NCBI GenBank assembly: GCA_964016885.1
Contig: OZ024740.1
Span: forward strand, 352,470,001-352,534,000
Reading direction: 5' to 3'
From: Eledone cirrhosa
Taxonomy: Eukaryota
Length of the DNA: 64,000 bases
This document shows, one piece after another, positions 5,561-63,600 of the stretch; within the stretch, counting starts at the first letter, position 1; every line of letters begins with the position of its first letter. The notes beneath the pieces are model-generated. The model did no database searches, was not told the origin of the DNA, and was given only the letters and a program-made list of their open reading frames with translations. A program made the position numbers and the translations under genes.

Positions 5561-7098
5561 GCACGCATCATCAATCAGACTATATACGGCAGGATCATAC
5601 CCAAAGACTGGTGCAGCAGTATTCTCATAAATTGCTACAAAGGTAAAGGGGATGCTCTGGAGAGGAGCAATTACAGGGGCATAAAAAACTGATGGATCAG
5701 GTCATGAAAGTGGCAGAAAGGATATTAGCACAACTAATTAGAGAAAGGGTCAACCTAGATGAGATGCAGTTTGGTTTTGTGCCTGGGAAAAGTACAACGG
5801 ATGCCCTTTTCTTAGTGAGACAATTACAAGAGAATTTCTTAGAGAAGAAAGCCACTATACTTAACTTTTGTTGACCTAGAGAAGGCCTTTGATAGAGTAC
5901 CCCGATCTGTCAACTGGTGGTCCCTAAGGAAGCTGGGTGTTGAGGAATGGCTTGTGAGGACAGTGCAAGCTTTGTACAGAGGTGCTGTCAGTAAAGTGAT
6001 GGTAGGAATGGAGTTTAGTGAAGAATTCCAGATACAAGTAGGAGTACATCAGGGTTCAGTCCTCAGCCCGCTCTTGTTCATTATAGTCCTCCAAGCCATA
6101 ACAGAGGAGTTTAAGACTGGCTGTTAATGGGAACTTCTCTATGCTGACGATCTGGTTCTTATAGCAGAATCGGTAGAGGAGCTGGAGAATAGATTCTGGC
6201 TATGGAAACAGCAGTTGAAATCAAGAGGACTGAGAGTGAACCTAGCTAAGACAGAAGTGTTGATGAGTAGAAAAGAGGACAAAACTCTGATTCCATCAGG
6301 GAAATGGCCATGTTCGATATGCAAAATAGGAACTGGCATAAATTCTATAAAATGTACACAATGCAGATCTTGGGTATACAGGAGATGTAGTGGGATAGCA
6401 GGCAAACTAACAGGTAGGGAGAAATACGTATGCAGTAGATGTACAGGGAACTTTGACAGTAGAAGTCGCATTGATAGACACATTTTTCAAATGCAGGTGG
6501 GTGCTATAGAAGTGGTTTATAGCTTCCGGTACCTAGGTGATCAGATTAGCATGGGAGGGGAGTGTTCCGAGGCCATAGTATCTAGAATAAGGTTGGGTTG
6601 GAAGAAGTTTAGGGAGCTGCTGACGAAGAAGGGTTTCTCCCTACGAACGAAAGGCCGGTTATATGATGCCTGTGTGAGGTGCGCGATGCTGCATGGTAGT
6701 GAGACATGGGCAGCAACTGCAGAGGATATGCGACAGCTGGAGAGAAATGAGGCAAACATGCTCCATTGGATGTGCAATGTGCGTGAATGGCCGAGCATGG
6801 ATGTGTTGAGAGAGAAACTGTGTCTGAGAGGGATAAATTGTTGTGTGCGGGAGAGGAGACTGCGATGGTATGGGCATGTGATGCGCATGGAGGATGACCG
6901 ATGGGTGAAGAAGTGCCAAGAAATACCAGTTGAAGGAAGACGACGAAAAACATGGGCGGAGTTGGTGAGAGCGGACTTCAGATCGCTGAAGCTCACGGTG
7001 GAGATGACAAAGGACCGTGACAAGTGGAGAGATGCTGTGCTGAATAGGACCCGTCCAACCCTTGCAAGCAGGGAAAAGCGGACGTAAAATGATGATGA
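5561..7098 (+). mobile_element. 5'-truncated RTE-clade LINE (RT, Cys-rich insert, C-terminus), disrupted
   Basis: NYRGIK, QFGFVPGKSTTDA, DLEKAFD, GVHQGSVLSP, YADD, LHGSETWA and RRLRWYGHV, with frameshifts and stops. It ends cccttgcaagcagggaaaagcggacgtaaaa(tga)n. Confidence 0.9.
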
Positions 7099-39426: not shown

Positions 39427-39769
39427 CTAATAGAAAATAGCAATTGAAACAGAACAAGTTTTAAGAAATATATTTTGTCATTTTTACAAAATTGCTGTGT
39501 TCACTCTGTAAAGTAGTAGTGGTAGAGTTATGATAAAATATACTCAGCCCCCTCTGTAAGGTGGTAGTGAATGTGCCATGATAAAATACACAAGTTTGTT
39601 TTGAGGAATACCAGCAATGCCCATCTTATGACAACAAGCTGTTGGTTAAAGTATTAAGCTCAATAAATAACACAATACAATCTATTTTCATTTCAGCAAA
39701 AAAGAATTTATTCAAGAAATGGTTAACTAAAATGAAATTAAAAGAAAAAAAACAATTATATAATGTTAG

Positions 39770-42119
39770 AGTAGACTATCAAGTGGCCAGGAGGGAAGCT
39801 AGGAGAGAAGTGTACTTAGCAAGAAGGGAAGCGGAGGAAAGAAAGTTCAAGCATGTTCTACAACGCGATGACCAAAAACGTGAGGTGTTCAGGATTGCCA
39901 GGCAATGCGTCAAGGAAAACCGTGATATTGTCGGGGAGAAGTGTGTACTTAACGATGATGGTGTACTTGCCATCACCGACACTGATAAGAAGGTAGCTTG
40001 GAAGTGTCACTATGAAAGGCTACTAAATGAGGAGAATAAATGGGAGAAAGACAGTCTCCCCCATATCGACCCGATAGAGGGACCAGCAGTGTTAGTCGAG
40101 GGGAGTATAATAAGTAAGGCAATCAAGGATATGAAGACTGGTAAGGCGGCTGGGCCTTCGGAAATAGTTGCTGAGATGCTGAAGGCATCTGGCACGGTGG
40201 GACACACCATGGTCACCCGCATAGTTAACCAAGTCGTACAGAATGGGGTTGTTCCGAAGGACTGGCATAGCAGCATCATCGTTAACTGTTATAAGGGTAA
40301 AGGAGACGCCCTAGATAGGAGTAACTATAGAGGCATTAAATTAATCGACCAGGTCATGAAGGTCACGGAAAAAGTAATAGCGCAACTAATCAGAGAGAGA
40401 ATTGATCTAGATGAAATGCAGTTCGGGTTTGTGTCAGGCAAAAGCACCACAGACGCTCTTTTCATAGTACGACAACTACAGGAGAAGTACCTAGCTAAAG
40501 GTAAACCCCTCTACTTAGCTTTTGTCGACCTGGAGAAAGCCTTCGACAGAGTCCCCCGCTCCATTATCTGGTGGGCTCTTAGAAAACTAGGCGTTGACGA
40601 ATGGCTTGTGAGGGCTATACAAGCCATGTATAAAGAAACAGTCAGCAAGGTTAGAATTAACAACGAATATAGTGAAGAGTTTAGCGTAAAAGTTGGCGTC
40701 CATCAGGGCTCTGTTCTCAGCCCCCTACTATTTATTATTGCCCTTCAGGCTATAACAGAGGAGTTCAAGACAGGCTGCCCATGGGAACTCCTATACGCAG
40801 ACGACCTGACACTCATAGCGGAATCAATGGCCGAGCTAGAGAAGAAATTCCAAACATGGAAGCACGGCCTAGAGTCAAAAGGACTTAAAATTAACCTGGC
40901 TAAGACCAAAGTTCTAGTTTGTAGGAAAGAAAACAAGGCGGCGGTCCCTTCTGGGAAATGGTCGTGCTCGGTATATAGGAAAGGCGTAGGTAGAAACTCC
41001 ATCTTATGTCCTAAATGCAAAGTATGGGTGCATAAAAGATGTAGTGGGATCACAGGTAAGCTAACTAAGAACATAGACTTTACATGTGGCCGATGTTCTG
41101 GTGCAATAAGTAGCAGCAAGTGCCCACAAAATACTAGCTCTTTCAATTGCGCAGAGGGTTCTATAGAAATAGTGGACAGCTTCCGTTACCTGGGCGATAA
41201 AATCAGCAGTGGGGGAGGGTGCTCTGAAAGTACTGTAGCTAGAGTCAGAACTGGTTGGAAAAAGTTCAGAGAGCTTATACCACTATTAGCTGCTAAAGGG
41301 TTCTCCCTAAAAATGAAAGGCAGGTTGTACGATGCCTGCATACGAACAGCAATGTTGCATGGTAGTGAGACCTGGGCATTGTGTGCAGAGGATATACGCA
41401 GACTAGAGAGGAACGAAGCTTGCATGCTCCGCTGGATGTGTAACAGTAATATACGTGAACGGCAAAGCATAAACGAACTAAGGAAAAAATTAGAGATAAG
41501 AGGGATCAGATGTTGTTTACTCGAGAGAAGGCTGCGTTGGTATGGACACGTGATGCGCATGAAAGTCGATAGCTGTATTACAAAGTGCAGGGCAATAAAG
41601 ATAGACGGTAGCCACGGAATAGGCAGACCTAGAAAAACATGGGATGAGCTGATAAACTCCGACCTCATACACTTACACCTCTCCAAGACAATGTCACTGG
41701 ACCGTGACCTTTGGCGGTACTCAGTAACAGAGAAGACCCGCCTTGCCAGTAGGCATCTCTAACAAACTACACCCCGTCCCGCCACCACCCCCACCCCATC
41801 CACACCACCCCGTTCCATGTAAAGTTATGTTGGTGCCGCGCCATCCAGGCCGAAACAAACGAGATCGTGTAGGTGTCACGACAAAAAAACACACAGTCCA
41901 CGCTGTAATGTGGCCGTGTAGGCAACACGGTAAAAACCTCCCAGACCCACACTGTAAATGTGGTTGGTGTTAGGAAGGGCATCCAACTGTAGAAAACCTG
42001 CCAGACAGTCCTATGCGAGCAAGACAATCACTCTTGCCTCAAGTGGGACTACCCCCGTCCAAACCCATGCAAGCGTGGAACACGGACATTAAACGTTGAT
42101 GATGATGATGATGATGATA
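39770..42119 (+). mobile_element. Young 5'-truncated RTE LINE with an open RT-to-C-terminus frame, in an ACOT8-like intron (antisense to the gene)
   Basis: The frame is uninterrupted to 41762, with RT motifs (AFVDLEKAFD, GVHQGSVLSP, YADD) and a Cys/His-rich insert, then a 3' UTR and (gat)n tail. There is no endonuclease region. Confidence 0.95.
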
Positions 42120-49340: not shown

Positions 49341-49540
49341 NNNNNNNNNNNNNNNNNNNNNNNNNNNNNNNNNNNNNNNNNNNNNNNNNNNNNNNNNNNN
49401 NNNNNNNNNNNNNNNNNNNNNNNNNNNNNNNNNNNNNNNNNNNNNNNNNNNNNNNNNNNNNNNNNNNNNNNNNNNNNNNNNNNNNNNNNNNNNNNNNNNN
49501 NNNNNNNNNNNNNNNNNNNNNNNNNNNNNNNNNNNNNNNN
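49341..49540. other. Assembly gap (200 N)
   Basis: Run of n characters. Confidence 1.
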
Positions 49541-49580
49541 TACATATATATATATACATACATATATATATATACATACA

Positions 49581-49612
<32 letters not shown>

Positions 49613-49725
49613 CATATATATATATACATACATATATATATATACATACATATATATATATACATACATATATATATATATACATATATATATACATATA
49701 TATATACTAATACATATATATATAC

Positions 49726-49772
<47 letters not shown>

Positions 49773-50054
49773 CATATATATATACATATATATATATATA
49801 CATATATATATATACATACATATATATATACATACATATATATATATACATACATATATATATATACATACATATATATATATACATACATATGTATATA
49901 TACATACATATATATATACATACATATATATATATACATACATATATATATACATACATATATATATACATACATATATATATATACATACATATATATA
50001 TACATTCATATATATATATACATATATATATATATACATATATACATATACATA

Positions 50055-50109
<55 letters not shown>

Positions 50110-50226
50110 ACATACATATACATACATATATATATACATACATATATATATACATACATATATATATACATACATACATATATATATACATACATATATA
50201 TATACATACATACATATATATATACA

Positions 50227-50260
<34 letters not shown>

Positions 50261-50733
50261 CATACATATATATATATATACATACATATATACATACATA
50301 TATACATACATATATATATACATACATATATATATACATACATATATATATACATACATATATATATACATACATATATATATACATACATACATATATA
50401 CATACATATATATATACATACATATATATATACATACATATATATATACATACATATATACATACATATATATATACATACATATATATATACATACATA
50501 TATATATATATACATACATATATATATATATACATACATATATATATATACATACATATATATATACATACATATATATATATACATACATATATATATA
50601 TACATACATATATATATATACATACATATATATATATACATACATATATATATATACATACATATATATATATACATACATATATATATATACATACATA
50701 TATATATATACATACATATATATATATACATAC

Positions 50734-50766
<33 letters not shown>

Positions 50767-51098
50767 CATACATATATATATACATACATATATATATACA
50801 TACATATATATATACATACATATATATATACAAACATATATATATACATACATATATATATATACATACATATATATATACATACATATATATATATACA
50901 TACATATATATATATACATACATATATATATACATACATATATATATATACATACATATATATATATACATATATATATATACATACATATATATATATA
51001 CATACATATATATATATACATACATACATACATACATATATACATACATATATATACATACATACATATATATATACATACATATATATATACATATA

Positions 51099-51169
<71 letters not shown>

Positions 51170-51741
51170 ATATACACATACATATATATATATACACATA
51201 CATATATATATATATACATATATATATTTACATATATATATATACATACATATATATATATATACATACATATATATATATATACATACATATATATATA
51301 TATATACATACATATATATATATATACATACATATATATATATACATACATATACATACATATATATACATACATATACATACATATACATACATACATA
51401 TACATACATATATATACATATATACATACATATATATACATATATACATACATATATATACATATATACATACATATACATATATATATACATATATATA
51501 TATACATATATATATATACATATACATATATACATATACATATATACATATATATACATATACATATATACATATACATATATACATATATACATATACA
51601 TATATACATATATACATATACATATATACATATACATATATACATATACATATATACATATACATATATACATATATACATATACATATATACATATATA
51701 TATATACATATACATATATATATATACATATATATATATAC

Positions 51742-51781
<40 letters not shown>

Positions 51782-51934
51782 ACATATATATATATACATA
51801 TATATATTATACATATATACATATATATATATACATATATATACATATACATATATATACATATATATACATACATATATATATATACATATATATATAT
51901 ACATATATAAATATATATATATACATATATATAC

Positions 51935-51965
<31 letters not shown>

Positions 51966-52014
51966 CATATATATATACATATATATATATACATATATAC
52001 ATATATACATATAC

Positions 52015-52059
<45 letters not shown>

Positions 52060-52318
52060 CATATATATATACATATATATATATACATATATACATATAT
52101 ATATACATATATATATACACATATATATATACACATATATATATATACACATATATATATACATATATATATACATATATATATATACATATATATATAC
52201 ATATATATATACATATATATATATACATATATATATACATATATATATATACATATATATACATATATATATATACATATATATATATACATATATATAT
52301 ATACATATATATATATAC

Positions 52319-52363
<45 letters not shown>

Positions 52364-52542
52364 CATATATATACATATATATATATATACATACATATAC
52401 ATATATATACATACATATATATATATACATATATATATATACATACATATATATATACATACATATACATATATATACATACATATATATATATACATAC
52501 ATATATATATACATATATATATATACATACATATATATATAC

Positions 52543-52573
<31 letters not shown>

Positions 52574-52773
52574 CATACATATATATATATACATACATAT
52601 ATATATACATACATATATACATACATACATATATACATACATACATATATACATACATATATACATACATACATATATACATACATACATATATACATAC
52701 ATACATACATACATACATACATACATACATACATACATACATACATACATACATACATACATACATACATACA

Positions 52774-52807
<34 letters not shown>

Positions 52808-52921
52808 CATACATATATATATACATACATATATACATACATACATATATACATACATACATATATACATACATACATATATACATACATACATATATAC
52901 ATACATACATATATACATACA

Positions 52922-52955
<34 letters not shown>

Positions 52956-53451
52956 CATACATATATACATACATACATACATATATACATACATACATAT
53001 ATAAATACATACATATATACATACATATATACATACATATATATATATACATACATATATATATATATATACATACATACATACATATACATACATACAT
53101 ACATACATATACATACATACATACATATACATACATATATATATATACATACATATACATACATATACATACATACATACATACATATACATACATACAT
53201 ACATACATACATACACATACATACATATATACACATACATACATATATACATGCATATATATATATACATACATATATATATACATGCATATATATATAT
53301 ACATACATATATATATACATGCATATATATATATACATACATATATACATACATATATATATACATGCATATATATATATACATACATATATACATACAT
53401 ATACATACATACATATATATATATACATACATATATATATATACATACATA

Positions 53452-53483
<32 letters not shown>

Positions 53484-53636
53484 CATATATATATATACAT
53501 ACATATATATATATACATACATATATATATATACATACATATATATATATACATACATATATATATATACATACATATATATATATATACATACATATAT
53601 ATATATACATATATATATATATACATATATATATAC

Positions 53637-53683
<47 letters not shown>

Positions 53684-53965
53684 CATATATATATACATAT
53701 ATATATATATACATATATATATATACATACATATATATATACATACATATATATATATACATACATATATATATATACATACATATATATATATACATAC
53801 ATATGTATATATACATACATATATATATACATACATATATATATATACATACATATATATATACATACATATATATATACATACATATATATATATACAT
53901 ACATATATATATACATACATATATATATATACATATATATATATATACATATATACATATACATA

Positions 53966-54020
<55 letters not shown>

Positions 54021-54197
54021 ACATACATATACATACATATATATATACATACATATATATATACATGCATATATATATATACATACATATATACATACAT
54101 ATATATATACATGCATATATATATATACATACATATATACATACATATACATACATACATATATATATATACATACATATATATATATACATACATA

Positions 54198-54229
<32 letters not shown>

Positions 54230-54364
54230 CATATATATATATACATACATATATATATATACATACATATATATATATACATACATATATATATATACAT
54301 ACATATATATATATATACATACATATATATATATACATATATATATATATACATATATATATAC

Positions 54365-54411
<47 letters not shown>

Positions 54412-54693
54412 CATATATATATACATATATATATATATACATATATATATATACATACATATATATATACATACATATATATATATACATACATATATAT
54501 ATATACATACATATATATATATACATACATATGTATATATACATACATATATATATACATACATATATATATATACATACATATATATATACATACATAT
54601 ATATATACATACATATATATATATACATACATATATATATACATACATATATATATATACATATATATATATATACATATATACATATACATA

Positions 54694-54748
<55 letters not shown>

Positions 54749-54865
54749 ACATACATATACATACATATATATATACATACATATATATATACATACATAT
54801 ATATATACATACATACATATATATATACATACATATATATATACATACATACATACATATATACA

Positions 54866-54899
<34 letters not shown>

Positions 54900-55337
54900 C
54901 ATACATATATATATATATACATACATATATACATACATATATACATACATATATATATACATACATATATATATACATACATATATATATACATACATAT
55001 ATATATACATACATATATATATACATACATACATATATACATACATATATATATACATACATATATATATACATACATATATATATACATACATATATAC
55101 ATACATATATATATACATACATATATATATACATACATATATATATATATACATACATATATATATATACATACATATATATATACATACATATATATAT
55201 ATACATACATATATATATATACATACATATATATATATACATACATATATATATATACATACATATATATATATACATACATATATATATATACATACAT
55301 ATATATATATACATACATATATATATATACATACATA

Positions 55338-55369
<32 letters not shown>

Positions 55370-55527
55370 CACATATATATATATATACATACACATATAT
55401 ATATATACATACATATATATATACATACATATATATATATACATACATATATATATATACATACATATATATATATACATACATATATATATATATACAT
55501 ACATATATATATATATACATACATATA

Positions 55528-55568
<41 letters not shown>

Positions 55569-55613
55569 ATACATACATATATATATATACATACATATAT
55601 ATACATATACATA

Positions 55614-55654
<41 letters not shown>

Positions 55655-55696
55655 ACATACATACATATATATATACATATATATATATACATACAT
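49541..55696. repeat. Giant compound (TA)n/(TACA)n microsatellite, at least 6.1 kb
   Basis: Almost purely ta/ca dinucleotides, with block-wise changes in motif mix. Confidence 0.98.
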
Positions 55697-55800
55697 GATG
55701 GCTGCCCCCTCGTTATCGAGTATGGCCATTGCATGAGGAGAAAGAAAAAAAAAATAATAATAAAAAAAAAGAAAAGAAAAAAAATATATATATATATATG

Positions 55801-56533
55801 TGTCTTGGTATTTTAACGATAGTTATAGCTCTGATTTATCTAAATTATTGAGCCCTCTGCCACTCATGTCGAATTTTGTTTATCGTGAACTCGTGCACCG
55901 ATTTTTCGATACTCGATTATTCTACTATATTTAGCTCTAGACTTAGCTATTGACCAGTTAATTTTATTGTTCATTTTTTGTCGATCCTATTAAATGATGA
56001 ATAGCTCCTGTTTATTTTAACATGTCTATTGAGCACTCTTATTCGATATGTGATTTTCCACATTCCCGAATATTTTTCGCGGATATAGAGGTTATCTCCC
56101 TTGCTGGATTCCATGTGCGTTTTCAGCTAGGGTTGGCTTTTTTATTCGTTTGGACAAAGCTCGTTGATAAAGTATTTCCTGTCCGCCGCTCTCTAGAAGT
56201 CTTATATATTTTTATGTGTGCTGATAGTGGGCGGTTTAAGGATTTACAGAAACCCAAGAAGCTAGTTTTACCATCTTTCTAGTGGGTCCGGGTAAGCTTT
56301 TTACATTCATATGATTTATTGATTTATTGATATTTTATCTGAGTGACCCGAATCTTCCTGATCGTAATTTTTCGGTCGTATGGTTGATTTTAGACATAAT
56401 CTATGTGTGTTGGTATTTTAACGATAGTTATAGCTCTGATTTATCTGAATTATTGAGCCCTCTGCCACTCATGTCGAATTTTGTTTATCGTGAACTCGTG
56501 CGCCGATTTTTCGATACTCGATTATTCTACTAT
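55801..56533. repeat. Unclassified partial-tandem element: ~128-bp direct repeats, 605-bp period
   Basis: ggtattttaacgatag...gattattctactatat occurs at 55807 and 56412 with only a few substitutions. It is flanked by TA microsatellite. Confidence 0.8.
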
Positions 56534-56792
56534 ATATATATACATATATACACACACATATATATTAATAACAATAATAATAATAACAACAACAACAATA
56601 ATAATAACGACAACAACAATAATAATATACATATATATCTACACACACACACACACACGATAGCAACTAACAGCGCTGCGATCGAATGTGGCTTTTTAGC
56701 CCAGCCAATGATCTAAAATGTCTTGCACATACATACATACATATATATATATACATACATATATAATTATATACATACATACACATACATAT

Positions 56793-56823
<31 letters not shown>

Positions 56824-56859
56824 CATACATATATACATACATACATACATATATATTAG

Positions 56860-58253
56860 AGTAAACATTGATGCAATTCAATTCAAGCACTCAACGTACT
56901 TTTTCCACATAGGAGTGACGGAGTAAATATCGAATAAGGAAAAGCGAAGTAGTTTCAGATGTTCAAGTCCTTTAATAATAATGCTGTGATATATATTTCA
57001 GTGACGACACTGGCCACACTGTTCTGTGTGCGAGTGTCGTGTCATCATCAGACAGCTTGTTACATAATAAGGTTATGTTTCCGAGGCAATCCAAATTGGA
57101 TCGACAAGGGAACGGATGAATTGCGTGTTCTTGGGTTTTTCATCCGCTCCCTTGTGAGCACCAATTCACCCCCACCGGCCTGCGCAAGCACATGTCCGAA
57201 GGAAGTTGACCATTCGCCACCGCAGACTTCAACGAAATTTGCTTAGTCAGTTCACCCTGTCATCCAAAACAATGGCCCACCAATGCCTGTACCATATTTT
57301 ACTGCTACCCATCACGGCTGTGGCAGTCAGTCGAGAGCCAGAGGGGATGGGAGAGTGTTAGTTTTTACAGGTCATAATACTACCCCTCACTAAGCGTTGA
57401 CGGTACGACTAACCATCACCTTATTAGGGAAAATAAACTTATTCTAGGTATCATGGTTTTACGTTGGAAGTTAAGAGTGAGAGTTGGAAATAAAAATTAA
57501 AATCCTAAATCAAATATCAGAAATTATAAATTAAACAATTAAGAAATTAACAATTAGAAATTAAAGAATTAAAAAAAGAATTTAAAAAAATTCTCTTCAG
57601 GTGATAATTCGGATTGAGGTGAGTAAATAATATAGAGAGAGGTGTTTAAGTAATATGTTCTGAGAGGGATTCTAGTGTCACAGTTACTCTATCCACATTG
57701 AACGACGGTGTCGTACATTATAACTACAGGGCTCCAGGCATTAGTGAATCTGGTACACAGTCCTAATTTCCATCACATGGAACAAAATCAAAGAAAAACA
57801 GACATAAAGTACACAAAAGAAAAGAACAGAACCAACAGTGAATAAATGCAAAAACACAGAGTACATATATGATCCATATGATTGTCCATCTGTCCATGTA
57901 TAGATTGAATTGAGGGGGCCTCTGTTCAAGTGCGATTTGGTGCAGGAAAATAGGGGTTTATCCTATTATTTGTTTCCGCGTATTTATCCTGCCGAAAGTT
58001 ATTATGTCCGTCCAGTGTAAGGGGTTTCCATCCCCATGGTAGAGGGAATTTCCGGGGTAGCTTATGGTTGGTTCCTCTCTTCTCCACCATATCGGTTACA
58101 TCGTAAAGCGCTCAACTATTGGAGCTAAATTATTAGGGTAAACATTGATGCAGTTCAATTCAAGCACTCAACGTACTTTTTCCACATCGGAGTGACGGAG
58201 TAAATATCGAATAAGGAAAAGCGAAGTAGTTTCAGATGCTCAAGTCCTTTAAT
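56860..58253 (-). mobile_element. Hammerhead-bearing non-coding element, left copy (1277-bp unit plus ~115-bp terminal direct repeat)
   Basis: The block gtaaacattgatgc...gtcctttaat occurs at 56861 and 58138. This copy is the reverse complement of 58261-59912. Confidence 0.75.
56983..57056 (-). ncRNA. Type I hammerhead ribozyme-like motif (left copy)
   Basis: Exact reverse complement of the motif at 59784-59857. Confidence 0.6.
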
Positions 58254-58374
58254 CAAATCCTATTATTAAAGGACTTGAACATCTGAAACTACTTCGCTTT
58301 TCCTTATTCAATATTTACTCCGTCACTCCTATGTGGAAAAAGTACGTTGAGTGCTTGAATTGAACTGCATCAAT

Positions 58375-58720
58375 CATCATCATCATCATCATCATTTCAT
58401 TTTACGTCCGCTTTTTCCCTGCTTGCAAGGGTGGGACGGGAATGATGCTGGCTTGATTTCTACAGCTGGATGCCCTTCCTAACACCAACCTCATTTACAG
58501 TGAGTGCTGGGTGCTTTTTTGCCGTGGCACCTCCACGACCACTTTGCAGTGGAATGATAGGGACCGCAATCCTATCATCTCATTTCTACAGCTGAGTAAA
58601 CTGGAGCAATGTGAAATAAAGTGTCTTGCTCAAGGAAACAACACATCACCCGGTCTGAGAATTGAACTCACAACCTTTCGATTGCAAGGCCAATGCTCTA
58701 ACCACTAAGCCATGTGCCTC
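58375..58720 (-). mobile_element. tRNA-derived SINE with RTE-derived 3' tail
   Basis: On -, the head has A box tggcttagtggt and B box gagttcaattc. The tail cccttgcaagcagggaaaaagcggacgtaaaatga(tga)n matches the RTE end at 7058-7098. The insert is flanked by caat/caat. Confidence 0.85.
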
Positions 58721-59783
58721 CAATGTTTACCCTAATAATTTAGCTCCAATAGTTGAGCGCTTTACGATGTAACCGATATGGTGGAGAAGAGAGGAACCAA
58801 CCATAAGCTACCCCGGAAATTCCCTCTACCATGGGGATGGAAACCCCTTACACTGGACGGACATAATAATAACTTTCGGCAGGATAAATACGCGGAAACA
58901 AATAATAGGATAAACCCCTATTTTCCTGCACCAAATCTATACATGGACAGATGGACAATCATATGGATCATATATGTACTCTGTGTTTTTGCATTTATTC
59001 ACTGTTGGTTCTGTTCTTTTCTTTTGTGTACTTTATGTCTGTTTTTCTTTGATTTTGTTCCATGTGATGGAAATTAGGACTGTGTAGCAGATTCACTAAT
59101 GCCTGGAGCCCTGTAGTTATAATGTACGACACCGTCGTTCAATGTGGATAGAGTAACTGTGACACTAGAATCCCTCTCAGAACATATTACTTAAACACCT
59201 CTCTCTATATTATTTACTCACCTCAATCCGAATTATCACCTGAAGAGAATTTTTTTTAATTCTTTTTTTAATTCTTTAATTTCTAATTGTTAATTTCTTA
59301 ATTGTTTAATTTATAATTTCTGATATTTGATTTAGGATTTTAATTTTTATTTCCAACTCTCACTCTTAACTTCCAACGTAAAACCATGATACCTAGAATA
59401 AGTTTATTTTCCCTAATAAGGTGATGGTTAGTCGTACCGTCAACGCTTAGTGAGGGGTAGTATTATGACCTGTAAAAACTAACACTCTCCCATCCCCTCT
59501 GGCTCTCGACTGACTGCCACAGCCGTGATGGGTAGCAGTAAAATATGGTACAGGCATTGGTGGGCCATTGTTTTGGATGACAGGGTGAACTGACTAAGCA
59601 AATTTCGTTGAAGTCTGCGGTGGCGAATGGTCAACTTCCTTCGGACATGTGCTTGCGCAGGCCGGTGGGGGTGAATTGGTGCTCACAAGGGAGCGGATGA
59701 AAAATCCAAGAACACGCAATTCATCCGTTCCCTTGTCGATCCAATTTGGATTGCCTCGGAAACATAACCTTATTATGTAACAA

Positions 59784-59857
59784 GCTGTCTGATGATGACA
59801 CGACACTCGCACACAGAACAGTGTGGCCAGTGTCGTCACTGAAATATATATCACAGC
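59784..59857 (+). ncRNA. Type I hammerhead ribozyme-like motif (right copy)
   Basis: Stem I GCTGT/ACAGC; core CTGATGA at 59789-59795; stem II TGAC(AC)GACACT/AGTGTCGTCA plus CACAC/GTGTG; GAAA at 59841-59844; palindromic stem III (A)TATATA(T); cleavage triplet ATC. Two extra nt (CT) before GAAA deviate from consensus. Confidence 0.6.
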
Positions 59858-59909
59858 ATTATTATTAAAGGACTTGAACATCTGAAACTACTTCGCTTTT
59901 CCTTATTCG

Positions 59910-59911
<2 letters not shown>

Positions 59912-59940
<29 letters not shown>

Positions 59941-60625: not shown

Positions 60626-63600
60626 ATCATCATCATCATCATCATCAGGTTTAGCGTCCGTGTTCCACGCTTGCATGGGTTTGGACGGGGGTTTTCCCAC
60701 TTGAGGCAAGAGTGGTTGTCTTGCTCGCATAGGACTGTCTGGCGGGTTTTCTACAGTTGGATGCCCTTCCTAACACCAACCACATTTACAGTGTGGGGCT
60801 GGGAGGTTTTTACCGTGTTGCCTACACGGCCACATTTACAGCGTGGACTGTGTGTTTTTTTGTCGTGACACCTACACGATCTCATTTGTTTCAGCCTGGA
60901 TGTTGTGGCACCAACATAACTTTACATTGAAAGGGGCGGTGTGGGTGGGGTGGAGGGACGGGGGGGGGGGGGGTTTGATAGAGATGCCTACTGACTGTAG
61001 TAGGTTTTTACTTTGTATTTAGGTAAGGCGGGTCTTCTCCATTACTGAGTACCGCCAAAGGTCTCGGTCCAGTGACATTGTCTTGGAGAGGTGTAAGCGT
61101 GTGAGGTCGGAATTTATCAGCTCGTCCCATGTTTTTCTGGGTCTGCCTACTCCGTGGCCACCGTCTATCTTTATTGCCCTGCACTTTGTTATACAGCTGT
61201 CGTCTTTCATGCGCATCACGTGACCGTACCAACGTAGCCTTCTCTCGAGTAAACAAAATCTGATCCCTCTTATTTCTAATTTTTTCCTTAGTTCGTTTAT
61301 GCTTTGCCGTTCACGTATATTACTATTGCACATCCAGCGGAGCATGCAAGCTTCGTTCCTCTCTAGTCTGCGTATATCCTCTGCACACAATGCCCAGGTC
61401 TCACTGCCATGCAACATTGCTGTTCGTATGCAGGCATCGTATAACCTGCCTTTCATTTTTAGGGAGAACCCTCTAGCGGCTAATAGTGGTATAAGCTCTC
61501 TGAACTTTTTCCATCCAGTTCTGACTCTAGCTACTGTACTTTAAGAGCACCCTCCCCCACTGCTGATTTTGTCACCCAGGTAACGGAAGCTGTCCACTAT
61601 TTCTATAGAACCCTCTGCGCAGTTGAAGGAGCTAGTATTTTGTGGGCACTTGCTGCTACTTATTGCACCAGAGCACCGGCCACATGTAAAATCTATGTTC
61701 TTAGTTAGCTTACCTGTGATCCCACTACATCTTTTATGCACCCATACTTTGCATTTGGGACATAAAATGGAGTTTCTACCTACGCCTTTCCTACACACTG
61801 AGCATGGCCATTTCCCAGATGGGACTGCCGCCTTATTTTCTTTCCTACAAACTAGAACTTTAGTCTTAGCCAGGTTAATTTTAAGGCCTTTTGATTCTAG
61901 GCCGTGCTTCCATGTTTGGAATTTCTTCTCTAGTTCGGTCATTGATTCAGCTATGAGCGTTAGATCATCTGCGTATAGGAGTTCCCATGGGCAGCCGGTC
62001 TTGAACTCCTCTGTTATAGCCTGAAGGGCAATAATAAATAGTAGGGGGCTAAGAACAGAGCCCTGATGGACACCAACTTTTACGCTAAACTCTTCACTAT
62101 ATTCGTTGTTAATTCTAACCTTACTGACTGTTTCTTTATACATGGCTTGTATAGCTCTCACAAGCCATTCGTCAACACCTAGTTTTCTAAGAGACCACCA
62201 GATAATGGAACGGGGGACTCTGTCGAAGGCTTTCTCCAAGTCGACGAAAGCTAAGTATAGGGGTTTACTTTTAGCTAGGTACTTCTCCTGTAGTTGTCGT
62301 ACAATGAAAAGAGCGTCTGTGGTACTTTTGCCTGACACAAATCCGAACTGCATTTCATCTAGATCAATTCTCTCTCTGATTAGTTGCGCTATTACTTTTT
62401 CCGTGACCTTCATGACCTGGTCGATTAATTTAATGCCTCTATAGTTACTCCTATCTAGGGCATCTCCTTTTCCCTTATAGCAGTTAACGATGATGCTGCT
62501 ACGCCAGTCCTTCGGAACAACCCCATTCTGTACGACTTGGTTAACTATCCGGGTGACCATGGTGTGTCCACCGAACCAGATGCCTTCAGCATCTCAGCAA
62601 CTATTTCCGAAGGACCAGCCGCCTTACCCGTCTTCATATCTTTGATTGCCTTGCTTATTGTACTACCCTGGACTAACACTGCTGGTCCCTCTATTGGGTT
62701 GATGCGGGGGAGACTGTCTTTCTCCCATTTGTTCTCCTCATTTAGAAGCCTTTCGTAGTGACACTTCCAAGCTACCTTCTTATCAGCGTCGGTGATGGCA
62801 AGTATGCCATCATCGTTAAGTACACACTTCTCCCCGACAATATCATGGTTTTTCTTGACACATTGCCTGGCAATCCTGTACACCTCACGTTGTAGAACAT
62901 GCTTGAACTTTCTTTCCTCTGCTTCCCTTCTTGCGAAGTACACTTGTCTCCTAGCTTCCCTCCTGGCCACCTGATAGTCTTCTCTACTTCCCCCATCCCG
63001 CCATGCTTTCCAAGCCTGCTTTTTGGCCTTAATTGACTCCTCCACCTTACTGTTCCACCACCATGTTACTCTCCTCCTACCTACAAGCCTGCTCCAGCCA
63101 CAGACTTCATCTGCCGCCGTCAGCAGGTTTGCTCTCAGGAATTCCCACTGTTCCTCTATATTATACGACTCTAATTGCTCTTCCTTACTGTCGAAAGCGT
63201 CAAGTAATATGCTTTGAAATTTATTTCTGACTATGGGGTCCTTTAGCTTCCATATTTTTCTCCTGAGGATAGTCCTCTTCCGCTGTCTAGTACGTCTCGT
63301 CCTGACTATGAGGTCGCTAATTATCAGTCTATGTTGGGAGGTGAATTCTTCATGGGGGAGGGATTTAGTGTTAACAACAGACACTCTGTCACGTCTTCTG
63401 GTAAGGATATAATCTACCTGGCTTGTGTGTTCCCCCGATCTATAGGTGATCAAGTGATTGTCTCGTTTTTTGAAGTTAGTGTTACAGATAGTTAAGTTAT
63501 TTGCGTCGCAGAATTCCAGGATTCTGGAGCCTTCCTCATTTCTAGTACGAACCCGTAGCCTCCATGGATTCCGTCATAGCCGTCACAATGTTGTCCAACG

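What the first reader, a model, noticed from the sequence alone, without database searches (positions are those of the whole stretch)
59784..59857. Type I hammerhead motif with a palindromic minimal stem III and an unusually long stem II
The sequence reads GCTGT-CTGATGA-[stem II]-CT-GAAA-TATATA-TC-ACAGC. The core elements are in the right order, stem I closes exactly, and the predicted cut is after C59852 (AUC). The self-complementary TATATA stem III resembles PLE minimal hammerheads that cleave as dimers. Stem II is long (about 15 bp with bulges), but its base has two extra nt (CT) before GAAA, so this is either a variant architecture or a damaged copy. The mirror copy at 56983-57056 (-) is identical.
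Basis: partly seen in the sequence, partly recalled or inferred. Interest (0 to 1): 0.8.

Follow-up and report, generated by a model that had tools for sequence, protein, structure and literature searches.

The report
Eroding hammerhead in non-coding Penelope element
This is a hammerhead-type RNA motif, predicted to cut itself weakly and in pairs, at the end of a 1.3-kb non-coding jumping element that likely borrows the enzyme of Hydra-type Penelope retrotransposons; this version has lost base pairs next to its core yet stands in 355 places in the genome, so cutting is probably not needed for spreading.

Summary
Confirmed: the 74-nt motif is at 59784-59857 and its mirror copy is identical; Rfam finds nothing. 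It lies in a ~1.3-kb non-coding Penelope-like element inserted in (TA)n as two inverted arms. The core plus TATATA occurs in over 41,000 further places (8 control hits), including beside intact Hydra-type RT/GIY-YIG genes (27 of 30). This copy keeps one of those three pairs; it is a 355-copy subfamily, not a private lesion. Copy 5' ends do not pile up at the cut site and many arms read through it. Added here: a repeated motif follows both fixed 3' ends, and 49 of 49 classifiable two-arm insertions use one end of each kind. Cleavage is untested. The scan found the C·C clade before on other DNA of this genome (e1-8670794). New variant of a known kind.

The parts
59784..59857 (+). Type I hammerhead motif, whole
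   Evidence: structure by covariation
59784..59788 (+). Stem I, 5' strand; pairs with 59853-59857
   Evidence: 5 of 5 pairs change on both sides across families
59789..59795 (+). Core C3-A9 (CUGAUGA)
   Evidence: sequence
59796..59799 (+). Base of stem II, 5' side; faces 59837-59840 as U·U, G-C, A·A, C·C
   Evidence: fourth position unpaired in 19 of 19 representatives
59800..59836 (+). Main stem II helix (8 bp, 59800-59807 with 59829-59836) and distal extension
   Evidence: distal part has little covariation
59841..59852 (+). GAAA (G12-A15.1), palindromic TATATA, U16.1 and C17; predicted cut after 59852
   Evidence: numbering from established hammerhead consensus
56983..57056 (-). Mirror copy of the hammerhead in the left arm
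56854..58253 (-). Left arm of the insertion: one nearly full 1.3-kb monomer plus the long (about 134-nt) tail after the cut site
58261..59912 (+). Right arm: nearly full monomer plus the short (about 60-nt) tail, ending in a TA-rich microsatellite
58375..58720 (.). Unrelated interspersed repeat inserted into the right arm (approximate ends)
58317..58356 (+). First copy of the motif RCTCC...GTTGAGYGCTT, just after the position of the short 3' end
58743..58762 (+). Second copy of the motif, just after the position of the long 3' end
58778..58780 (+). ATG at about the place where autonomous sister families start their RT-endonuclease gene; no long frame follows here

Best explanation
The motif is a type I hammerhead at the 3' end of a 1.3-kb non-coding Penelope-like element that is likely copied by the enzyme of Hydra-clade elements, and it is predicted to cut weakly at most, as a dimer. 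Shown: stems I and II covary across families in the register 'three positions, C·C mismatch, 6-8 bp helix'; the same hammerhead type flanks intact RT/GIY-YIG genes; the element has tandem and inverted arms, (TA)n targets and two fixed 3' ends; this subfamily keeps one of the three basal pairs and stands in 355 places. Inferred: two motifs would pair through A-TATATA-U to build helix III; cutting would be slowed by the weak base of stem II and by pairing of the AUC site with the core, and may need the element's protein, as reported for the anole element PAc. Inferred: reverse transcription starts at two internal sites about 60 and 134 nt after the cut site, each likely positioned by one copy of a repeated motif, one site per DNA strand, on RNA that is mostly uncut. 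Selection on the ribozyme is then loose enough for the basal pairs to erode.
For: Covariation 0.822, 88.3% of cells paired, 0 of 500 shuffles; best slid control 0.177; RNAalifold finds the same stem II register unaided. 41,442 matches with the 5' C against 2,564 without it, and 2,125 that lack the 3' C. 27 of 30 loci picked by the RT-endonuclease protein carry this hammerhead type about 1.4 kb after the gene, 9 of them also upstream; the protein has DKT, CxCX5C, CxxC and CxH as described for Hydra. The window's family shares the repeated motif and the ATG position with those elements; the second motif has 2,114 matches (3 control) and 24 of the 30 loci fetched lead into a Hydra-like gene. Of 60 two-arm junctions 49 pair a long with a short tail, none pairs two of a kind, 11 had one end unclassifiable. 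Among 30 copies of an older relative picked by flank alone, core positions differ from the majority in 10 of 325 cells against 72 of 969 in the 3' flank (p = 0.005, copies not independent). PAc hammerhead cuts only with protein and its mutants still insert in vitro (PMC11167929).
Against: No cleavage data exist for this motif. The minimum-energy fold of the window copy is not a hammerhead: core GAU pairs with the AUC site (probability 0.75-0.78) and the basal G-C pair has probability 0.09. Rfam has no match. No autonomous element with the window family's own hammerhead was found, so the partner is inferred from shared motifs. Most family representatives were collected with patterns that demand the core and TATATA, so invariance of those letters in the alignment is built in; the 19 representatives are related and were chosen by hand. 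Six of 122 arm ends lie within 25 nt after the cut site, which leaves room for some use of cut RNA. The tail motif's role rests on position and conservation only.
Confidence: 0.65

Rival explanations
1. The clade's hammerhead works, but the window's subfamily carries a dead version that rides along because cutting is not needed for insertion.
For: Only one of three basal pairs is left (U·U, G-C, A·A, then C·C), against three in the older relative (G·U, A-U, U-A) and two in the larger sister subfamily (791 matches). The AUC trap is predicted (described in PMC1636495). 26 internal hammerheads are read through in 18 distinct arms.
Against: All core letters, stem I and the palindrome are intact in the 355 matches' shared pattern or in the copies fetched; one of the two subfamily changes turns G·U into G-C; U·U at the first position is common in published Hydra hammerheads (PMC8557442 File S2); another family also has A·A at the third position (row J). 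Read-through is expected of a slow ribozyme too.
Confidence: 0.25
2. The element is a non-LTR retrozyme: two cuts release a 1.3-kb monomer that is circularised, and rolling reverse transcription of the circle gives arms longer than one unit.
For: Head-to-tail monomers with one hammerhead each; ligation would rebuild the hammerhead, so read-through does not exclude cutting; retrozymes are proposed to be non-autonomous Penelope derivatives (10.64898/2026.07.22.740005).
Against: The monomer is about four times the ~300-bp size given for metazoan retrozymes (PMC7229834). The one long array examined grew after insertion: alternate monomers are 0.15-1% apart while neighbours are 5.5% apart. Most copies are 5'-truncated single or inverted arms.
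Confidence: 0.1
3. One reading: TGAC pairs with GTCA and two extra nucleotides (CT) sit before GAAA as a new active core.
For: This helix can form in the window variant and costs about the same as leaving the base open (-9.8 against -10.2 kcal/mol for partial structures; pair probabilities 0.11-0.23).
Against: No covariation (0.066; 248 of 500 shuffles as high); broken by a U·U in the larger sister subfamily; spacing between the C·C and GAAA is fixed in all families.
Confidence: 0.04
4. Chance resemblance in AT-rich repetitive DNA.
For: No Rfam match; modest folding z-score.
Against: 1,786 against 3 and 41,442 against 8 control matches; covariation; fixed position in Penelope-like elements.
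Confidence: 0.01

Closest known systems
Minimal type I hammerheads of Penelope-like elements (Cervera and de la Peña 2014, PMC4209133; parts 1-2 of 4 read)
   Same: Type I, in the terminal repeat, short stem I, larger than usual helix II, palindromic helix III region predicted to work as a dimer, often on opposite strands close together, mostly in truncated copies.
   Different: Here the palindrome is 8 nt (A-TATATA-U), stem II reaches 14 predicted pairs, the first position is N·N rather than a bulge followed by G10.1-C11.1, and a C·C mismatch is fixed at the fourth position. Their supplementary alignments were not seen.
Hydra-clade Penelope-like elements and their hammerheads (Craig et al. 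2021, PMC8557442; passages, section 11, supplement parts 1-2 of 59 read)
   Same: (TA)n targets, tandem and inverted arms, optional tail; sister proteins have DKT, CxCX5C, CxxC, CxH; many listed Hydra hammerheads have U·U at the base of stem II.
   Different: None of the Hydra rows in File S2 has the C·C mismatch or the TATATA palindrome (their stem II is 3-7 bp, stem III 3-4 bp). The tail here is about 75 nt, not 30-40. The window's element is non-coding, and the sister protein has RWR for RWK and a unit of about 3.85 kb.
PAc (Poseidon) element of the green anole (Frangieh et al. 2024, PMC11167929; parts 1-2 of 4 read)
   Same: Two internal reverse-transcription start sites downstream of the hammerhead that define the tail; AT-rich targets; hammerhead not needed for insertion in vitro.
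   Different: Different clade; there the start sites lie inside the ORF, here before the ATG, each followed by a copy of a repeated motif.
Non-LTR retrozymes (PMC7229834, passages; bioRxiv 10.64898/2026.07.22.740005, part 1 of 5)
   Same: Non-coding, one type I hammerhead per monomer, head-to-tail copies, Penelope-derived.
   Different: Monomer 1.3 kb rather than about 300 bp; mostly dispersed, truncated and inverted; no circular RNA shown.

Membership tests
Type I hammerhead ribozyme | Core CUGANGA, GAAA and UH in order, stem I open | tested here: met
Type I hammerhead ribozyme | Stems I and II supported by covariation | tested here: met
   13 of 14 pairs change on both sides, 0 of 500 shuffles reach the score
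Type I hammerhead ribozyme | Paired 10.1-11.1 position (usually G-C) | tested here: not met
   U·U in the window; unpaired in 9 of 19 representatives. U·U also occurs in published Hydra hammerheads, so this is a common feature, not a strict one.
Type I hammerhead ribozyme | Match to an Rfam hammerhead model | tested here: not met
Type I hammerhead ribozyme | Self-cleavage at the predicted site | not testable with these tools
   needs a cleavage assay or raw RNA reads
Dimer-type hammerheads of Penelope-like elements | Palindromic helix III region too short to close alone | tested here: met
   8-nt self-duplex, -3.2 kcal/mol; palindrome kept with other letters in other families
Penelope-like element (non-autonomous) | Partial tandems, inverted 5'-truncated arm, optional tail | tested here: met
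Penelope-like element (non-autonomous) | No RT/endonuclease gene of its own | tested here: met
   no long frame; tblastn against two sister proteins E 0.67 or worse
Hydra clade | DKT, CxCX5C linker, CxxC and CxH motifs, C-terminal GIY-YIG-like domain in the autonomous sisters | tested here: met
   RWR instead of RWK; no Pfam match for the partial protein
Hydra clade | Placement in the Hydra clade by RT phylogeny | not tested
   reference proteins were not available to the tree tools
Hydra clade | (TA)n insertion preference | tested here: met
Hydra clade | An autonomous partner with the same terminal repeat as the window's family | tested here: inconclusive
   none among the loci fetched; only shared tail motifs and ATG position
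Non-LTR retrozyme | Short (about 300 bp) tandem monomers | tested here: not met
   1,301-nt monomer
Non-LTR retrozyme | Expressed as circular RNA | not testable with these tools
   needs RNA data

The most novel reading that the evidence does not exclude
A clade-wide C·C hinge in stem II tunes or gates these hammerheads, and the element family records a natural series (three, two, one basal pair) that shows whether Penelope-like elements need their ribozyme; in addition a twice-repeated RNA motif is the binding site by which a dimeric Hydra enzyme primes one DNA strand at each of two fixed sites, explaining the tail and the inverted arms.
Probability: 0.3. Interest if true: 0.65.

Novelty: new variant of a known kind. 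Interest (0 to 1): 0.38.

Why it matters
Hammerheads in Penelope-like elements are known, but what they are for is still described as unclear (PMC8557442). This family offers a natural graded series of the same ribozyme, each grade amplified hundreds of times, so one set of cleavage assays would tell whether activity tracks spreading. The rule that two-armed insertions use one short and one long end, with a repeated motif beside each, gives a concrete test of how these elements prime reverse transcription. The motif class is also missed by Rfam although it stands in tens of thousands of places in one genome.

Tried and rejected
Rfam at gathering and E-value thresholds: no hammerhead. The protein next to the family-D hammerhead in L065 was first taken as its partner; its relatives carry a different hammerhead, so that was co-insertion in one microsatellite. 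5' ends at the cut site: the first mapping showed four arms starting at +1 to +3, but three were edge effects of the reference and really start 9-16 nt upstream; several apparent starts at +6 to +9 are later insertions of another repeat into the ATT run. Rolling-circle origin of the long array: rejected for that locus. 'The window subfamily is much younger': not supported, mean pairwise flank distance 5.9% against 6.1%. Distal stem II: only 2 of 24 predicted pairs change on both sides in the 13 closer relatives, and that consensus fold pairs core with the cut site. One search used a structure string that was off by one column and is disregarded. RNA evidence: no RNA holder listed; the three contig sets laid (2 samples, 1 study, kind not on record) show the TGTC/CATT form as the majority and say nothing on expression. 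Lünse et al. 2017 (PMC5785218) was not held. No structure prediction or protein-database search was run, as the finding is non-coding.

Full report
Observation. A descriptor scan of both strands of the window found only these two. Rfam has no match at gathering score in the window and no hammerhead at E up to 10 in 59600-59910. The fold of 59775-59870 has z = -2.05. The genome is 3.0 billion bases; I did not identify the host.

The element. The two motifs sit at the outer ends of two inverted arms, 56854-58253 (minus) and 58261-59912 (plus), 3 differences in 979 aligned nt, flanked by TA-rich microsatellite; the right arm is interrupted by an unrelated repeat. A DNA search gave 809 candidates, of which 40 were scored; 41 of the 44 matches listed were identical over all 141 nt. 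Tandem copies define a 1,301-nt monomer with no long reading frame and no similarity to two sister proteins (best E 0.67). Copies are 5'-truncated, often with an inverted partner, and end in (TA)n at one of two places, about +51 to +68 or +119 to +142 after the predicted cut (loci there overlap in part, so I give no count). This is the arrangement described for Penelope-like elements (PMC8557442, passages).

The hammerhead clade. CTGATGA-N20-50-GAAATATATATC has 1,786 matches against 3 for the control, and the first 100 rows showed other families with unrelated stem II letters. A pattern that excludes the window's family and asks for C at the fourth stem II position and C or A opposite has 41,442 matches (control 8). 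Patterns without the 5' C, or with it but without the 3' C, have 2,564 and 2,125 matches (controls 130 and 64), and the rows listed are largely single-letter mutants of the same families. The spacer ranges differ a little between patterns, so 'about 94-95% conserved' is approximate. I aligned 19 hand-picked representatives out of 264 distinct motif copies then held. The structure stem I plus three basal positions, a mismatch and six further pairs has 88.3% of cells paired and covariation 0.822, reached by 0 of 500 shuffles; slid controls reach 0.177 at most. RNAalifold predicts the same stem II register, though not stem I. The fourth position is unpaired in 19 of 19, the first in 9 of 19. The core and TATATA were demanded by my patterns, so their invariance in this alignment is no evidence. 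Two less biased samples help. Of 30 loci picked by protein, 27 have the motif downstream. In 30 copies of an older relative picked by upstream flank, core cells differ from the majority in 10 of 325, the basal stem II positions in 10 of 232, stem I in 22 of 300 and the 3' flank in 72 of 969 (core against flank p = 0.005; copies are not independent). In loci picked by the tail motif the palindrome appears as TATATA, TATGTA or TGCGCA, which fits a dimer helix III as proposed by Cervera and de la Peña (PMC4209133, parts 1-2 of 4).

This copy. In the comparative register the base of stem II reads U·U, G-C, A·A, C·C. The pattern for this form has 355 matches, the form U·U, G·U, U-A, C·C has 791, a few from other families, and the older relative reads G·U, A-U, U-A, C·C. 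The order three, two, one pair is my inference from similarity and divergence, not from a rooted tree; the two younger forms have similar within-group flank distances (5.9% and 6.1%; 8.2% between). Against activity: the basal G-C pair has probability 0.09, and core GAU pairs with the AUC site at 0.75-0.78, the inactive pairing that Carbonell et al. propose to explain why AUC is rare (PMC1636495, passages). For activity: all core letters are intact, and U·U at the first position is frequent in published Hydra hammerheads (File S2 of PMC8557442).

The partner. The same hammerhead type lies about 1.4 kb after 750-residue RT/GIY-YIG-like frames, with a second copy upstream in 9 of 30 loci, about 3.85 kb apart. 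These proteins have DKT, YRDD, CxCX5C, CxxC and CxH, and RWR in place of RWK, matching the description of the Hydra clade (section 11 of PMC8557442); I built no tree. The window's family shares with them two copies of RCTCC...GTTGAGYGCTT, each starting a few nucleotides after one of the two 3' end positions, and an ATG 16-19 nt after the second (0 matches in 2,000 shuffles of the monomer). The second copy has 2,114 matches (control 3); 24 of the 30 loci fetched lead into a Hydra-like frame, 3 are the window's family, 3 others have no such frame. I found no coding element with the window family's own hammerhead.

How it likely works. Frangieh et al. showed for an anole element that reverse transcription starts at two internal sites that define the tail, that the hammerhead cuts only when protein is added, and that core mutants still insert in vitro (PMC11167929, parts 1-2 of 4). 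Here, of 60 two-arm junctions, 49 join a long-tailed and a short-tailed arm, 11 have one end that I could not classify, and none joins two of a kind. I infer one priming event per DNA strand, one at each site, with the repeated motif as the likely binding site. I mapped 122 arm ends at 61 junctions: 6 lie at +1 to +25 (two of them the window's own), 3 at -25 to -1, one at +2, and the rest spread over the monomer. Internal hammerheads are read through 26 times in 18 distinct arms (some in one array are later duplications). The sample was chosen for an intact hammerhead in at least one arm, which depletes ends just upstream, so a small excess near the cut is not excluded, but cut RNA is not the rule. 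Ligation into a circle would hide cutting and remains a rival.

Novelty. Hammerheads in Penelope-like elements, dimer-type palindromes and non-coding derivatives are all in print. I did not find the C·C form in print: the search 'hammerhead', 'C-C mismatch', 'helix II' gave 0 papers, and the listings showed none by title or abstract; the Hydra rows of File S2 lack it. Lünse et al. 2017, known to me only from a review's passages and reference list, could not be read, and the supplements of Cervera and de la Peña were not seen; either may hold this form. The scan itself noted the C·C clade before on other DNA of this genome (e1-8670794, seen after my own analysis). Verdict: a real, new variant of a known kind; interest 0.38.

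Noticed in passing
window 59661-59770 (+), mirrored in the left arm: A long hairpin just upstream of the hammerhead (-46.8 kcal/mol for 59661-59790, with a 17-bp inner helix); the older relative keeps similar sequence here.
   Followed up: no
window 59853-59870 equivalent in many loci (e.g. L192, L205, L210, L211, L232): An unrelated short repeat has inserted again and again into the ATT run just after the predicted cut site, with duplication of the run.
   Followed up: partly
L298 and L299, about 150 nt before the tail motif: A Hydra-like family (about 41% identical protein) whose hammerhead-like motif reads CAGAAGA in place of CUGANGA, a change at a normally fixed core position.
   Followed up: no
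L320, L321, L020: Hammerhead family with C·U instead of C·C at the fourth stem II position and the palindrome TGCGCA, upstream of a Hydra-like frame.
   Followed up: partly
L079, L081, L085, L039: A very abundant Hydra-like family (56,579 candidates) with a short stem II hammerhead and CAATTG palindrome, without the C·C.
   Followed up: partly
L072-L073: Inverted array of three plus four full monomers with an alternating two-monomer period, grown after insertion.
   Followed up: yes
window 39585-41762 (+), 61541-63573 (-), 6128-7087 (+): Reverse transcriptase frames with a PHD-like finger, one preceded by an endonuclease-like frame: LINE-type retrotransposon copies.
   Followed up: partly
window 49450-55700: About 6 kb of TA/TACA microsatellite array with 12-15% G+C.
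   Followed up: no
window 55790-55930 and 56406-56535: A 130-140 nt direct repeat, 96-98% identical, just left of the element.
   Followed up: no
L250: An arm that runs from +291 back to +2 after the predicted cut site, the one end that matches the cut almost exactly (3-nt microhomology).
   Followed up: partly
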